This document shows positions 14,820-55,244 of a stretch of 64,000 bases of DNA, one piece after another. Below the pieces are notes generated by a model. That model did not search any database. It was not told the origin of the DNA and saw only the letters and a program-made list of their open reading frames with translations. The stretch lies in contig OZ024741.1 in NCBI GenBank assembly GCA_964016885.1, forward strand, positions 332,940,001-333,004,000. Direction: 5' to 3'. Position numbers and translations under genes: made by a program. The stretch comes from Eledone cirrhosa (Eukaryota). Numbering within the stretch: the first letter of the stretch is position 1; every line of letters begins with the position of its first letter.

Positions 14820-15036
14820 CAATATAGACAGTTTTATAGATAAATAGATTTGACATACCGTTCAACATCGACTTGTATTTGAAAAGTTGATTTGGCAGTG
14901 AAAAAATTGTTTACAAAAGTTGATTTGGCAGTGAAAAAATTGTTTACAATTTTTTCACTGCCAAATCAACTTTTCAAATACAAGTCGATGTTGAACGGTA
15001 TGTCAAATCTATTTATCTATAAAACTGTCTATATTG

Positions 15037-45806: not shown

Positions 45807-46221
45807 AGAGGGGAAAAGCACGGGAGAGTGTGTTTTTTCATTTACAGGATGTTAAACCACCAGCGTGAAGATAATATAAGCTAAGAGAGGTATAGGAAAA
45901 ACATTATAATTAAAAGTATAAATTAACATGAGAAACCAACTTCATAACTAAGTAACACATACAAACTCACTGGGAGATTGTTTCGCGAGATCTTTGCACA
46001 TGCTAGGCCCACTAGGCCGATTTGGAACCCACTATATGGCGAAACAATCTCCCAGTGAGTTTGTACATGTGTGACTTAGTTTTGAGGTTAGTTTCTCATT
46101 ATAATTTATACTTTTAATTATAATGTTTTTCCTATACCTCTTTTAGCTTATATTATCTTCACGCTGGTGGTTTAACATCCTGTAAATGAAAAAGCACACT
46201 CTCCTGTGTTTTTTCCCCTCT
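45807..46221. repeat. Inverted repeat, ~180 bp arms with 52-nt spacer
   Basis: 45807-45986 is the reverse complement of 46039-46221 with scattered mismatches. Confidence 0.9.
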
Positions 46222-46528
46222 ATATATTGTATTTTAAAGTGCCCAGAAAAACTCTTTCCTTTGAGCTCATTTGATTACAGGATTATACGCGAGTCCTTTA
46301 CTCCGTCATTTAACTATATATATATAAATTTATTATTATTACTATATATATATTCAAAGAACTTTGTAACGCAAACTGGCACAACATTTATTATACTTAT
46401 TCACCAACCAATCAAACTTCTTCTCTAAAAACCTGGCATTTTGAGCCACTTTTTTTCCATATAAAACAAGTAACATTCAAAGACCAACCAGATGTGAGAA
46501 AAACCACAGACCCTCCATCTCAACTCTA

Positions 46529-46564
46529 CTTTTGAAAAGCAGAAGAACTGTGAAACCGGTAAAG
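46529..46564 (+). ncRNA. Minimal hammerhead motif, U3-A8 core variant, in 5' Penelope terminal repeat
   Basis: ctt-TTGAAAA-gcag-aagaa-ctgt-GAAA-ccgg-TA-aag; palindromic stem III ACCGGT; stem I only 3 bp. Confidence 0.6.
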
Positions 46565-46724
46565 GAACCAAAGAAATATATATTTAAAAAAAAAAAGACT
46601 CCAGTTGCATTTTCGATTTCATCTTTTTTCCTTATACTTTCACTCGTGTAGGACACTTCGGTTATTTTTCATTTTGTAAAAAAACCTCACTTTTTAATAC
46701 ATACCCACCACACGAAGACTGAAA

Positions 46725-49700
46725 ATGCCACCAAAGTCTCAACAAAACGACAACTCACTGAACCAGGACATCTTAAATGAACTCGAAGAGATTTCCTCTA
46801 AACTTTCAATTTTGACCAACAAAGTGGACCAAATACATATCTATAAAAAGGACTCCATGAAGAAGCAGAAAATACCCAAGAGACGAATATTACTCCAGCA
46901 TTAACTAAACTAATTGAAACCATTGAAACAGCATTGAAAAACTGGAACAACCGTTAGAACCTAATCTACGAGATGTTCACTCAGTGAAAAAACACCCTGA
47001 TTAATATATGGACTCAAAAGCTCACAGCCCAAGTCCAACGAAGAAAAATTCAAGTCACTCGACCAACAGATGGAATCTCAAGGCACTCTGAAGGCCTACT
47101 CTATGAAAAAAACCTTAAAACTTTGGAAAGAAAATTGTGAGGATGAAGAACTAACATCCCTCCAGCGATGGGAAAAAAACGCCACCTGGTTCAACAACTA
47201 CGAAATGGATTTCAAAACTGAACAACATACAGGTAACCCATATTTAAAACAAACTAAAACTCACACACCACACGCACAACAAATAACAAAAAAAGTAACA
47301 AAACGGCCAACATACCCCCAGCAAAACTATGACGATAATCCCAGAACCCATAGACAAAACTATAACCCTACTAACAAAAACCGAAGATCCCCCAACACAA
47401 GACAGGACCCGATCCGCAGATCACAACCCACACAAAATCTATTCCAAAACCGTAGACCCCAACCCACACAGAACCTGTTCCAAAATCGTAGATCCCAACC
47501 TACACAAAGGAACAAAATCTACAACCCGGACTATCAACAAACCGAACCTCAATACGTCCGAAACTTCTATACAAGATCACACAACAACAGGGGAAATGCC
47601 ACTAGATATAATAATACCCATGAAAAAACAATTCAGAAAATCAATTTTTAGACCAAGGCTACAGGACCCAGGACACCCGGTGGCACAAACCGATTTTGAA
47701 AAACCGAAAATAATCATCCTTTCAAATACAAACTTCTCAGTCCAACAAATTAAAATCATCTCCAAAGGACTGAAATTCACACCAACACCACAATACTCTA
47801 ACCTCAATGAGATAAATGACGATATCTCACACTTTTGTAGAAAATTACTTCTCACAGAGGAATTTTTTGACAAGGAGAATAACAACTAATCAATTGTACA
47901 GAATAAAAGCAGCTACAACCCCAAAAAGGGTAGAAACAGAGTTCTGGACAAATTTTGTGACCACATAACAATTTTTCCATACTATGAACTACCGCAACCT
48001 AAACCCAAACCCAACACGAGTCGAAGGGAATGGGAGATTATCCATGAACTAAAAAACAATACGGACATTATAATTAAGGAAGCGGACAAGGGAAGTACTG
48101 TCGTCATTATGGATGCTGAACAATATAAAAATTCTATGTTCTCTCTCTTACAAAATACTAACTACTATGAAAGAGTAAAAAACTACCAGCACTCAAAAAA
48201 CGATGACCAGATTAAACACATTCATTTGTCGATACCAGGAAGACTTAACTAAAAAGGAACGCGATTATTTAACACATTTTGAATACAAAACCAGCAACTT
48301 TTCCGGACTTCCGAAGATCCACAAGTGTAAAATAATTAACGATCCACCTCAACCTACCTGAACACACAATACCCCACATACCTTAAATTAAAACCAATTG
48401 TAGCAGGCCCACAATGTGAAAGACACAGACTAAGCAACTTTATAGACATATTACTAAAACCAATTCTCAAACACATACCAAGCCTTGTAAGAGACGATCT
48501 GGACCTCTTAAACCACCTCCCCAAACATGTCAACAACGACACTATTATTGTATCTTTCGATGTAGTGAATCTCTACACAACGATCCCACACCAATAGGGA
48601 CTAGAAGCAATAGGATTCTGGCTAGAGAAATATCCCAATGAGATACCCGACAGAATAGAAAAAGCTTCGTCACCGAGGGATTAAAATTTATTTTACAGAA
48701 CAACTTTTTTGATTTCGATGGCAGTACTTACAAGCAAATATCGGGGACTGCGACGGGTACAAAAGCCGCTCCAACTGATGCCAACTTAGTCATAGTATAC
48801 TTGGAAGTCCAGATATATGAACAGTCCAAATCAAAATACGGATTGAACTTCCACAAATATTTATCAGAGAATTGGAAACGCTACTTGGATGATTATCTCA
48901 TTCTTTCGTCTCACACACTTGACCAACTAAATGATTTCAAAAATTTAATTAACGGCATCAATAACCACATCCAATTCACAATGGAATGCAGCCAAGATCA
49001 ACTCCCATTTCTGGACATCTTAAACTTAAACAAAGACATAAATATTGAAACTGACATACACTACAAACCAACAGATTCCAAACAATACCTGCTATTCACC
49101 TCCAACCATCCAAAGCACACGAAGACGAACATCCCTTTTAACCTAGCAAGAAGAATTTGCACTATTGTCTCCAATTATGAAACGCGAAATAAAAGACTTC
49201 AAGAATTAAAAGAAATTCTACTCGAAAGACAGTACTCACCATTACTAATAAATAATGGAATAGAAAGGGCTAAAGCAATTGGCATTGATGAGTTACGAAA
49301 ACAGTAACAAATTCAAGGTACGTCCAATATTCTATCATATATTTCAACACACAACCCAAGAAATGCGGAAGCTTACAACACTATTCACAAGAACATCCCA
49401 CTATTGAAACAAAACCCAAGAATGAAAAAAGCCCTTGAAACACACAAAATAATCAAAAGCAAAAGAACCGAAATCACTAAAAACATTACTCACCAATGCC
49501 AAATTACCTACCACAAACCCACAACCAACTGTCAAAAAATGTGGTCGCTCTAATTGTGGAACTTGCACTCACCTCATTGAATGCAACACGTATACATTTC
49601 AATCAGGACAAAATTTTGCTGTAAAAAATCACTTCACTTGGTCATCAAAAAATCTAGTTTATGCCATTAAATGTAAAGGATGCAATGAAGACTATATAGG

Positions 49701-49919
49701 ACAAACTAAACTCACACTCAGAAACAGAATGACAGTTCATCGCCAACAATTACGAGATCCAACCACGAGACAGATACCACTAAGTGCACATCTAGACATA
49801 TGCGCAAGTAATAAGACACCTACATTTTTCTTTGCGCTGACAATACAACAGAACAAATACGAATAAATAAGGAAAATATGTTTATTCAAAAATATAGACC
49901 AGCATTAAATATAGTTTAA
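46725..49919 (+). pseudogene. Disrupted Penelope-like polyprotein: N-terminal Q/N/R-rich region, reverse transcriptase, Cys linker, GIY-YIG endonuclease
   Basis: SKGLKFTPTP, IIIKEADKGSTVVIMD, GLPKIHK, SFDVVNLYT, QISGTATG, WKRYLDD, LPFLDI, YKPTDS..SNHP, CGRSNCGTC, NLVYAIKCKGCNEDYIGQT, PALN; several stops and frameshifts. Confidence 0.88.
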
Positions 49920-50401
49920 TATACATTATGTCAACACCATAACATGCTAACCATCCAAACAGACACATACATACACACATAACACCTTCTACTTTAGAAA
50001 ATAAGAACCAGAACTAAATAAACCTTAACATACGTTAATACTCTAACACCTTAACATGCTAACCACACACCCCCACACACACATAACTCCCTCCCCCATT
50101 TCTACTAACGGAATCCGTTTTCCTACACACACACACACACAACTCCCTCCCCAATTTCCACTAATAGAATCACTTTCCTACACACACACACACACACACA
50201 CAATATATATATTCTCTCCATCTTAACGTGCCAACCATACTCCCACGCACACATACACACACAGACATAACACATACACACACACAAAAATATATATGCT
50301 CTCCATCTTAACATGCTAACCATACTCCCACACTCACACATAACACCCATACACACACACACACAAATCCTTCCCCCATTTCTACTAATCGAATCATCTT
50401 C

Positions 50402-50474
<73 letters not shown>

Positions 50475-51278
50475 TAAACATACATATCTCTACTTTTTTT
50501 ATTTCAATAGAAAGTCTAAATTCTGACACCCCAGCCATATTCACTGAACCAGAACAATTCTCCCCATCCCATTTCTCTTGACCATTATCTTTTGTTTGGC
50601 ACAAAATTCTCTAAAAGGCTACAAAATAAATTCTCAAATATGGGTGCGAAATTTAATGAACTTGTTCACGTGACAGTCATAATTTCATTTATAACCAATC
50701 AAATTACATTTCAGCCTATCAGTCATACTCAGAAAAACTCTCTCCATCCCTTTTACTTGACCATTATCTTTTGTTTAGTACCAGTAATGCACTGGGTAAT
50801 TGCTGGCCTTGTGCCTAACGTAGAAACAATTATCTTTTGTTTGGCACAAAATTCTGTAAATGGCTATAAAAAAATTCCAAAATACGGGGTGAATTTAATG
50901 TACTTATTCACGTGACAGTCATAATTTCATTTATAACCAATCAAATTACGTTTATAAAAAAAAGCCTTCGTGAGCCACTTTTTTTTTAAGTAAAAAAAAA
51001 TTCAAACACAAACTGGCATGAAGCTGATGTGCTTATTCACGTGACTGCATCAACCAACCAAACTTCACTCACATATGAAAAAACAACCTGAGCCCCCTCT
51101 TTGTTTGAAGAACTTTGTAATGCGAACTGGCACAAAATTTATTATACTTATTCACCAACCAATCAAACTACTTCTCTAAAAACCTGGTATTTTGAGCCAC
51201 TTTTTTCCATATAAAACAAGTAACGTTCAAAGACCAACAAGATGTGAGAAAAACCACAGACCCTCCATCTCAACTCTA

Positions 51279-51314
51279 CTTTTGAAAAGCAGAAGAACTG
51301 CGAAACCGGTAAAG
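51279..51314 (+). ncRNA. Minimal hammerhead motif, U3-A8 core variant, in 3' Penelope terminal repeat
   Basis: ctt-TTGAAAA-gcag-aagaa-ctgc-GAAA-ccgg-TA-aag; stem II fully Watson-Crick. Confidence 0.65.
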
Positions 51315-51405
51315 GAACCAAAGAAATATATATATATTTAAAAAAAAAGACTCCAGTTGCATTTTCGATTTCATCTTTTTTCCTTATATATATATACATA
51401 GATAA

Positions 51406-52339: not shown

Positions 52340-53789
52340 GTGTGTGTATATGTATATATATATATATTTGTCTGTGTTTATGTTTGTATCTATGTTTGTG
52401 TTTATGTCCCATAACTTAGGGTTTTGACAAAAAAGGGATCAATAAAATAAGAACGAGATTGAGGTTGGTATGATTAACTGAATTTAAACAGTACCCCAGC
52501 ATGGCCAGTCATACGACTGAGACCATTAGGAGAATAGAACAGAATATACACCATTATTTTCTGAGTTCAAATCCCGCCGAGGTGGACTTTGCCTTTCATC
52601 CTTACGGGGACGATAAAATAAAGTACCAGTAATGCACTGGGTAATTGCTGGCCTTGTGCTAAAAGTAGAAACAATTATTTTCTGTCAACCATATTTTACA
52701 AACAAAAGTCATAGAATGATGGAAATATTAAAAAGAGGTAAAAACAAAATTAAGTAACAAAAAAAGGGGAAGGGGCAAAGAAGGGCAAATCTCACTCCAC
52801 TTCACAATTCACTTTGGAGTCACATGGGCACTGTTTATGCAGCTGTCTTGATCAAATATCTACATAGCATTCAAAATTTCATATTATTTACACACACAGT
52901 TCGCATCCATTCTATAAATAAAAATTCCTTTTACTCTGACCCAATCAAAACAAATGTTTGTCTTATAACCGATGACATTTCTTCATTCAACAGATAATAT
53001 ATTTATAGCTCATTATATTTATTTCATATTTCAAATGTCAGAAAAATATATCTGTTACTGAGTTGTTAATTTTCTTTTCACAAAAAAACTTTGCTCAACA
53101 TTTCAATGTTATTTAGAATATTGATTACTTCAGTTTTGGGCGATATTTTGCAACTGTTTTAGTTCATTATTATCATCATTGTCGTTCTAACATTCACTTT
53201 CTCTACTAGCAAGTGTTAGACGAGTTAACAGAGATAAAATCAGTACTAATCCCCCAGAAAATGCCAAATATATATATATTATATATAAATATTATATATA
53301 TATATTATATATATATTATATATATATTAAACAACAATAGAAGGCTGGACTGGAAAATTTGCTTTAAAATTCTAATTCCGTGAAATCACTATACATATTT
53401 TGATGACCCAGCTCCATCATCCAATTATGATGCAAGACATGATAATAGGGAGAAGAAAATATAAAATTGAAAATTCAATTTGAAGACTGATGCATAAAAT
53501 TTTATATATATATATACACACACACACATATATATATGGGCGGAGGTGGTGAGAGCAGACCTCAGATCACTGAAGCTCACAGAGAAGATGACGAAGGACG
53601 AGACAAGTGGAGAGATGCTGTGCTGAATAGGACCCGTCCCACCATTGCAAGCAGGGAAAAGCAGACGTAAAATGATGATGTTGATGATGAAATATATATA
53701 TATATTTATATAATATACAATGTGTACATAATATTCATATACACATTCTCAAAGTCTCATTACTGTCTCTTTATATATACTATAATATT

Positions 53790-54205
53790 ACATAATATAT
53801 ACATCAACCTGAAGACGTCTTCTTGTGAACATGACCTGGGCATTATTGTCAACAGAGATATACATTGGACAAAGGACATCTCTAAAATTGTCAAAAAGGC
53901 TGAGGATGTCTTAACATCACTTTGTAAGACCTTTGTCAGCTGCTCTCTATTTCTCTATTTAAAGCTGTATATAGCTTTGGTGTATACATACTTAGAATTT
54001 GCATCACCAGTCTGGAAGCCCTATCTTGCACAGAATATTGATCACTTGGAAACTATTGAGAGATGTGCAACCAAACAAATATCCCCCATCAGGCATCTAC
54101 CATACTCTGAATGGCTTGTTTCCCTGGGCATGGATACATTAAAGCTCCAGTGTCTGGCAACTGACTTGGTAGACACCTACAAGATTATTAACCATCTTTC
54201 CAACA
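53790..54205 (+). mobile_element. CR1-group LINE RT C-terminal fragment
   Basis: EHDLGIIV, LYIALV..LEFASPVWKPY, IDHLETIERCATK, LPYSEWL, DLVDTYKII. Confidence 0.8.
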
Positions 54206-55244
54206 CCAATATATATAATATATATATTGGTGTGTGAGGGCATTCATGCCTATATTTATGTAAATTTCTGTATCTGCATTGAAATCCTGTAACTTAGTGG
54301 TTATTAATTATATATGTACCAGAAAGAAAATATAAAAACTGTTGGTTTGATATTATGAATTGGCAGTATCGGTAGAGGGTTGGACGCCATGCTTTCTAGC
54401 ATAGTTACGTCCCTTTACAGTCTGAGTTCAAATCCCGCCGAGGTTAACTTTGCCTTTCATCCTTACGGGGTCGATAAAATAAAGTACCAGTAATGTACTG
54501 GGTAATTGCTGGCCTTGTGCCTAAAGTAGAAACAATTATTGACTAAATCAAAACAGTACCCCAGCATGGCCACAGTTTAATGACTAAAATAAGTAAAACA
54601 ATAAAAGAATACACACACACACACCCACTCCCATACATAACTTTTTCCTTAGAAAAGATTCTAACAAGACATCTTACCAAATGAAGGCAGTGCGTCAACA
54701 TGGCCACAGTCAAATAACTAAAACGAGTAAAAGAAGATACACACATATTCAAATCTATTTCCTTAGAGTGGTGAGCATTAAGAAGAGTATCTAACCAATT
54801 GCTTTACCAAATAAACATGTCCATACAATTTTTACCAGAATGGAAAAAGCATGTTCTTGTTTTGATTGATGTCAACTTTTAATACTTTTCTTTGTTTAGA
54901 CAATGACAACAGTTTCAAGAAATGGTGGGATGGGGATGAGAGAGAGGAGGCCTCTGATTAAGTGGTAAGATCATCTTAGATAAACCCTCTCTCTCTCTCT
55001 CAATATATATATATATATATATATATATCATGTTTAATATAGAAATGACTTCTACAGGACTAGAACTGTTTTATTCAAAACAAATCATCAGGAAAGCCTG
55101 TTTTTTTTTTGAATGAAAGTTCTAGTCTTGTAGGAGCCACTTCTATATTAAACATGATGTTTACACTCTACTAACGTACTGAGAAACTTAATTACCATGG
55201 TTACCCCCGATTGAACCCAACACACACACACATATATATATATA

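What the first reader, a model, noticed from the sequence alone, without database searches (positions are those of the whole stretch)
46529..51314. Paired U3-A8 minimal hammerheads bracket the whole Penelope ORF
Both terminal repeats have core UUGAAAA instead of CUGANGA. The two changes (C3U, G8A) are exactly the compensatory swap of the known 3-8 tertiary pair, so standard pattern searches would miss them. Palindromic ACCGGT stem III allows the two copies to form a dimer; cleavage after GUA at 46561 and 51311 would excise a 4750-nt unit RNA holding the full RT/GIY-YIG frame, which could circularise.
Basis: partly seen in the sequence, partly recalled or inferred. Interest (0 to 1): 0.75.

Follow-up and report, generated by a model that had tools for sequence, protein, structure and literature searches.

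The report
Penelope hammerheads copied from uncut RNA
This is a broken copy of a known kind of animal jumping gene with a hammerhead-shaped RNA motif in each end repeat; the swapped U-A core pair is already published, and its sister copies begin and end well away from the predicted cut site, so the element is likely copied from uncut RNA rather than from a cut-out linear unit.

Summary
Both U3-A8 hammerhead motifs are real: 46532-46561 and 51282-51311, 4750 nt apart, in 95%-identical repeats of a Neptune-type Penelope-like element. Stems I and II covary across seven aligned motifs. The U3-A8 core, the dimer model and the circle idea are published (PMC4209133). The 'full frame' is wrong: this copy has 3 stops and many indels, and intact copies have two ORFs overlapping at a U UUU UUA site. 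The 5' motif has lost G10.1-C11.1, and stem I is only 3 bp. Against excision: 0 of 60 sampled copies end at the cut and 0 of 60 begin there. Ends fall at about +75 and +145, starts pile up at -72. The template is therefore likely uncut RNA starting at -72 and primed internally, as shown in vitro for an anole element (PMC11167929). A circle as template for the long copies is not excluded. No RNA run was listed. This scan noted U3-A8 motifs, run-off copies and the frameshift before on other DNA.

The parts
46357..46636 (+). 5' pseudo-LTR (direct repeat); starts 204 nt before the predicted cut, next to a (TA)n tract, and runs on into the element body
46490..46499 (+). Inferred RNA start (-72 from the cut); short family copies begin here
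   Evidence: loose ends at 46491-46492
46529..46564 (+). 5' U3-A8 minimal hammerhead motif; G10.1-U11.1 variant, 3-bp stem I, predicted cut 46561|46562
46629..46636 (+). First family end point (about +75): inferred reverse-transcription start 1
46696..46703 (+). Second family end point (about +140): inferred reverse-transcription start 2; the stretch between the two points is the optional PLE 'tail'
46725..47713 (+). Remnant of ORF1 (409 aa stop to stop in intact copies); broken by indels here
47644..47650 (+). Position of the U UUU UUA heptamer of intact copies in the ORF1/ORF2 overlap; changed in this copy
47624..49919 (+). Remnant of ORF2: RT (DKG 48085, SFDV 48553, YLDD 48882), Cx4CxxC linker (49540) and GIY-YIG endonuclease; 3 in-frame stops and several frameshifts
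   Evidence: (GIY-YIG E 9e-6; RVT_1 E 0.034 only)
49920..51107 (+). 3' untranslated region with (CA)n tracts and short tandem modules
51108..51388 (+). 3' pseudo-LTR; ends 77 nt past the predicted cut, at the first family end point, in (TA)n(GATA)n
51279..51314 (+). 3' U3-A8 minimal hammerhead motif with intact G10.1-C11.1 and 3-bp stem I; predicted cut 51311|51312

Best explanation
The stretch is a decayed copy of a two-ORF, Neptune-type Penelope-like retrotransposon whose two end repeats each carry a U3-A8 minimal hammerhead motif that is predicted to cut only as a pair and weakly, and the family is likely copied from RNA in which that motif is uncut. Shown: the motif, its covarying stems, the broken frame, and where family copies start and end. 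Inferred: transcription starts 72 nt before the cut site; the RT-endonuclease nicks (TA)n and starts DNA synthesis inside the RNA at about +75 or +145; many cDNAs run off the RNA start and insert as 150-220-nt copies, often two head to head, one from each start. Long copies such as this one run without a seam through -72, so they need a template that continues there: most likely a jump of the run-off cDNA to the same sequence in the downstream repeat, or read-through of a tandem array. The hammerhead would then act, if at all, outside the copying step (trimming or turning over read-through RNA).
For: 3' ends: 0 of 30 loci found with an upstream-only query end at the cut; 28 end +65 to +152 and 2 run into the ORF (2 are the window's own repeats). 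0 of 30 position-ordered motif hits end at the cut; 9 end at +79 and 16 at +146 to +149. 5' starts: 0 of 30 and 0 of 30 (young subfamily) loci found with post-cut queries begin at the cut; 16 and 6 begin at -74 to -67. Among 212 motif instances 48 start at -74 to -67 and none at -88 to -75. 9 of 10 head-to-head pairs have one long and one short end. Contigs of runs X1-X3 (one sample, kind not recorded) show depth steps near 46490, 46636 and 46703 and loose ends at 46491-46492 and 46633-46636. PMC11167929 (parts 1-2 of 4 read): two internal RT starts give the tail, hammerhead mutants insert normally, no reads end at the cut. About two thirds of contig depth carries the weak 3-bp stem I (rows 46527-46528).
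Against: No RNA evidence for the start site or for cleavage. Samples are the best-scoring or first-listed 30 loci each, include paired arms and 3 self hits among the post-cut sets, and are not independent: a few percent of cut-site starts could be missed. The motif is kept with compensatory changes across families, and the young subfamily has a 4-bp stem I with the active dimer 1.4 kcal/mol from the minimum, so cleavage is probably selected for something. No full-length copy among 19 fetched starts at -72, which the simplest linear model predicts. No recombinant haplotype located a jump point. Contig depth is no copy number, and it dips at 46564-46586 over a variable A/T tract.
Confidence: 0.65

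Rival explanations
1. Two pools: uncut linear RNA gives the short copies, while double cleavage and ligation give a unit-length circle that templates the long, more-than-unit copies.
For: A circle leaves no scar at the cut and explains seamless 5' repeats longer than -72 (window -204; L081 -110; L089, L091, L093 over 1 kb). The young subfamily folds close to the active dimer. Proposed in PMC4209133.
Against: No junction data. The short copies show that uncut RNA is an efficient template. PMC11167929 found cleavage dispensable in vitro. It cannot apply to this copy as a coding RNA, and its own dimer is unfavourable.
Confidence: 0.2
2. The motif no longer cleaves in this family and persists as a protein-binding or passively copied fold.
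For: The majority subfamily has a 3-bp stem I; stem I probability is 0.05-0.06; no scar at the cut. PMC8557442 (passages) suggests hammerheads may simply parasitise PLEs.
Against: Every catalytic position is invariant across 7 motifs whose stems differ; the young subfamily has the longer stem I; the anole hammerhead cuts when the element's protein is added (PMC11167929).
Confidence: 0.12
3. The motif lies in a 5' UTR intron, so splicing and cleavage are alternative fates of the RNA.
For: A pyrimidine tract and AG at 46650-46651 precede the ATG at 46725; GT donors could be GTGAGA (46494) or the cut triplet itself, GTAAAG (46559). D. virilis Penelope has a 5' UTR intron (PMC2377424, passages) that ends at helix I (PMC4209133).
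Against: The GT at the cut is required by the hammerhead anyway and is a weak donor; the other donor is 4 nt from the inferred start; no joint from either donor to 46651, whose runs look like DNA.
Confidence: 0.15

Closest known systems
U3-A8 minimal hammerheads of Schistosoma mansoni Cercyon PLEs (Cervera and de la Pena 2014, PMC4209133; parts 1-2 of 4 read, supplements not seen)
   Same: Type I motif in both pLTRs, U3-A8 core, G10.1-C11.1, palindromic 15.2-16.2, dimer predicted, most copies solo.
   Different: Stem II is 4 bp (7-8 there), stem I 3-4 bp (4-5 there), there is no extra base between 9 and 10.1, and stem III has the 4-nt CCGG loop, like the Drosophila and shrimp variants of that paper.
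Neptune-type EN+ Penelope-like elements (Craig et al. 2021, PMC8557442; passages read, figures not seen)
   Same: RT, CX2-5CxxC linker, C-terminal GIY-YIG, DKG motif, (TA)n targets, partial tandems, inverted pLTRs, tail at one end.
   Different: Two ORFs overlapping in the -1 frame at U UUU UUA, where the abstract describes a single ORF; the Fig. 1 legend mentions an ORF1 frameshift with a pseudoknot, for a clade I could not see.
Poseidon PAc of Anolis carolinensis (Frangieh et al. 2024, PMC11167929; parts 1-2 of 4 read)
   Same: Two internal RT starts downstream of the hammerhead, AT-rich targets, no ends at the cut.
   Different: C3-G8 core overlapping the start codon there; here both starts lie before ORF1, about 70 nt apart, and the copies also mark a fixed 5' start.

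Membership tests
Type I minimal hammerhead of PLEs | Core with paired 3-8 positions, G5 A6 A9, G12 A13 A14, A15.1-U16.1, H17 | tested here: met
   U3-A8; all core positions invariant in 7 aligned motifs except 7 and 17
Type I minimal hammerhead of PLEs | Stem II closed by G10.1-C11.1, supported by covariation | tested here: met
   100% of stem II cells paired, 3 of 4 pairs change on both sides; the window's 5' copy has G-U. The 7 rows were picked by a pattern fixing the core, and are related.
Type I minimal hammerhead of PLEs | Stem I of 4-5 bp | tested here: inconclusive
   3 bp in the window's subfamily, 4 in the young one, up to 5 in sister motifs; 82.9% of cells paired, 4 of 5 pairs change on both sides
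Type I minimal hammerhead of PLEs | Palindromic stem III allowing a dimer | tested here: met
   ACCGGU duplex at probability 0.66-1.0 in 6 of 6 co-folds
Type I minimal hammerhead of PLEs | Extra unpaired base between 9 and 10.1 (common trait in PMC4209133) | tested here: not met
   Absent in 7 of 7 aligned motifs; a frequent trait, not part of the catalytic core
Type I minimal hammerhead of PLEs | Self-cleavage | not testable with these tools
   Needs an assay; no genomic scar at the cut
EN+ Penelope-like element, Neptune type | RT followed by C-terminal GIY-YIG | tested here: met
EN+ Penelope-like element, Neptune type | CX2-5CxxC linker before the endonuclease | tested here: met
   Cx4CxxC at 49540
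EN+ Penelope-like element, Neptune type | pLTRs, inverted arms, optional tail, (TA)n targets | tested here: met
EN+ Penelope-like element, Neptune type | RT phylogeny within Neptune rather than Nematis | not tested
   No reference set fetched; type assigned from linker and targets only
EN+ Penelope-like element, Neptune type | Single ORF | tested here: not met
   Two ORFs in different frames in L081, L084, L085, L089, L091, L095; one fused 938-aa frame in L093, which has an extra T in the run

The most novel reading that the evidence does not exclude
The family's thousands of short copies are strong-stop-like cDNAs, and long copies arise when such a cDNA jumps from the RNA start to the matching sequence in the downstream repeat. 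A hammerhead cut there would define the RNA's 3' end and leave a 72-nt terminal redundancy, as a retroviral R region does. That would explain how PLEs rebuild their pseudo-LTRs, in an element that also makes its enzyme by a -1 ribosomal frameshift.
Probability: 0.2. Interest if true: 0.7.

Novelty: new member of a known kind. Interest (0 to 1): 0.28.

Why it matters
The motif as flagged is in print and this copy is dead, so the finding itself is ordinary. The family is useful as a test bed. It has over 11,000 motif copies, intact young members, two natural stem I versions, and sharp start and end points. These bear on two open questions: what PLE hammerheads do (called unclear in PMC8557442) and how pseudo-LTRs are rebuilt ('no obvious mechanism', PMC2377424). 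The genomic record here agrees with the one in vitro study that uncut RNA is the template.

Tried and rejected
No RNA holder listed; runs X1-X3 are contigs of one sample of unrecorded kind with genomic-looking flanks, so they say nothing on splicing, cleavage or circles. Rfam: no hammerhead; the miRNA hits are microsatellite or foldback matches below gathering score. The upstream-only query from the young subfamily returned nothing (uninformative). Haplotypes of 117 copies spanning -200 to +68 gave a stepwise series of subfamilies and no clear recombinants, so circle (switch at the cut) and jump (switch at -72) could not be told apart. Positive control for the scar test in the sister family: by eye about 3 of 30 (L243, L253, L264) and 1 of 30 (L274; L277 unreadable in a tandem run) loci start within 7 nt of the cut, too few to call. 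My first guess of a +1 shifty stop at 47651 was dropped: it comes from decay in this copy. No pseudoknot found after the heptamer, only a hairpin 7 nt downstream. L087 was an off-target fetch and was dropped (19 of 20 regions used); L128 and L173 aligned poorly and are kept in the counts; L260's ORF hit resembles the window's own family and was not used to link the sister family. Lunse et al. 2017 (PMC5785218) is not held and was not read; it may hold cleavage data on U3-A8 PLE motifs. Paper searches: 'hammerhead U3-A8' gave only PMC4209133; 'C3U G8A' gave nothing relevant; 'Penelope-like, frameshift, slippery, Neptune' and 'Penelope-like, strong-stop, template switch, tail' listed no paper describing those features in EN+ PLEs.

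Full report
Observation. Each reads stem I strand, UUGAAAA, GCAG-AAGAA-CUG(U/C), GAA, ACCGGU, A, stem I strand, with the predicted cut after 46561 and 51311, 4750 nt apart. They lie in direct repeats 46357-46636 and 51108-51388 that are 95.4% identical. A descriptor written for the motif gives these 2 matches and none in 100 shuffles. Rfam misses them.

The element. Between the repeats lie remnants of an RT and a GIY-YIG domain. The frame is not intact: compared with one intact copy (L084, 94.2% identical) there are 15 alignment gaps and three in-frame stops. A search of the genome with the RT piece listed 150 matches, many in 775-aa open frames. Of 20 regions fetched, 19 were on target. Six show a complete ORF1 of 409-410 aa and an ORF2 of 775 aa in the -1 frame, overlapping by about 90 nt. 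ORF2 has no Met before the DKG motif, and the overlap holds U UUU UUA followed after 7 nt by a predicted hairpin. A -1 frameshift is therefore likely; it is untested. The Cx4CxxC linker and (TA)n targets make the element Neptune-type by the traits in PMC8557442; no tree was built.

Is it a hammerhead? The exact 30-nt motif occurs 11,810 times (control 0). A U3-A8 pattern that excludes the family's usual base 7 finds 1,288 places against 6 for the control, mostly copies of a few other repeat families. One of these sister families is linked to a PLE ORF 39-63% identical to ORF2 (L246, L254, L261, L283, L290, L295). Seven aligned motifs keep the core and ACCGGU invariant while stems I and II change on both sides: 91.4% of cells paired, covariation 0.63 against 0.25 shuffled and at most 0.16 slid; the two pair-count measures were reached by 55-57 of 500 shuffles. 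The rows are few, related and chosen by a core pattern, so this supports the fold without proving it.

Would it cut? As monomers the active folds are unfavourable (+4.7 and +2.4 kcal/mol). The active dimer of the window's two motifs is -13.2 against a minimum of -18.4, with stem I at probability about 0.05 and the 5' stem II at 0.04 because of its C11.1U change. The young subfamily has a 4-bp stem I and an active dimer of -21.1 against -22.5. Cleavage is thus plausible for young members and doubtful for this copy. These are secondary-structure estimates only.

What do the copies record? A cut linear RNA used as template should leave copies that start or end at the cut. None was seen. With a query wholly upstream of the motif, 0 of 30 loci end at the cut and 28 end 65-152 nt past it. 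Among the first 30 motif hits in genome order, 0 end at the cut, 9 at +79 and 16 at +146 to +149 (numbering of the young copy, including TA microhomology). With post-cut queries, 0 of 30 and 0 of 30 loci start at the cut, while 16 and 6 start at -74 to -67. Of 212 motif instances, 48 start at -74 to -67 and none at -88 to -75. In 9 of 10 head-to-head pairs one arm has the long end and the other the short end. Contigs of one public sample show matching depth steps and loose ends, with the caveat that depth is no copy number. The samples are small and not independent, so a few percent of cut-site ends cannot be excluded.

Mechanism. The simplest reading is an RNA that starts at -72 (a C|A start; inferred), keeps the hammerhead uncut, and is reverse transcribed from two internal points onto nicked (TA)n. 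This matches the in vitro behaviour of the anole element, where two internal starts make the tail and hammerhead mutants insert normally (PMC11167929). Long copies pass -72 without a seam: the window's 5' repeat starts at -204, and none of the full-length copies fetched starts at -72. They need a cDNA jump between repeats, read-through of a tandem array, or a circle. A haplotype test could not separate these. I favour the jump or read-through because uncut linear RNA is already shown by the short copies to be a good template; the circle remains the main rival.

Comparison. PMC4209133 reports U3-A8 minimal hammerheads in PLE repeats, their low activity as dimers (tested on a Schistosoma motif whose core type the text I read does not state) and the circle proposal. 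The finding is a new member of that kind. Also seen: PMC6765202 (passages), bioRxiv 10.64898/2026.07.22.740005 (parts 1-2 of 5), PMC3846280, PMC2377424 and PMC7151607 (passages). The C3-G8 tertiary pair is taken from PMC11167929 and from recall. Earlier notes of this scan report the same U3-A8 motifs, run-off copies and frameshift in this and other genomes. Two notes report copies that break at the cut in other families; that does not hold for this family.

Verdict. Motif real, variant known, this copy non-coding, excision model unsupported by the family's ends. Interest 0.28.

Noticed in passing
window 47644-47650; L081-L100 around 2975-2981: ORF1 and ORF2 overlap in the -1 frame with U UUU UUA in intact copies and no early Met in ORF2: likely programmed frameshift. 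L093 has one more T and a fused 938-aa frame.
   Followed up: partly
window 46494-46499, 46559-46564 and 46611-46651: Two donor-like GT sites (one is the cut triplet) and a pyrimidine tract with AG before the ORF1 ATG: possible 5' UTR intron containing or overlapping the hammerhead.
   Followed up: partly
L131-L159 (e.g. G000:C1:6519946-6521556): A 316-nt tandem, often head-to-head repeat with a U3-A8 hammerhead and longer stem III; retrozyme-like; it dominates the listing.
   Followed up: no
L221, L227, L239-L298: Sister PLE family with a U3-A8 core, GAUG/CAUC stem II and the same ACCGGU; a few copies start near the cut.
   Followed up: partly
window 45810-46217: Foldback with 151-nt arms, 93% complementary, just upstream of the element; no hammerhead core pattern in it; the MIR8562 match is below gathering score.
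   Followed up: partly
window 14879-14977: Head-to-head pair of UUGAAAA-like cores with a weak stem II and no palindromic stem III.
   Followed up: no
window 50550-51050: Short tandem modules with CACGTGAC and CCAAT-like words upstream of the 3' repeat; possible promoter array.
   Followed up: no
window 53671-54237: Open stretch resembling the C-terminal part of a LINE reverse transcriptase (resemblance recalled, not tested).
   Followed up: no
L099 (G000:C4:28496500-28506400): A 3,912-bp unit holding an inverted arm and an intact ORF2 is duplicated in tandem, both copies sharing one variant.
   Followed up: no
window 50777-50840 and 52622-52685: A 64-nt segment of the 3' UTR recurs outside the element at 92% identity.
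   Followed up: no
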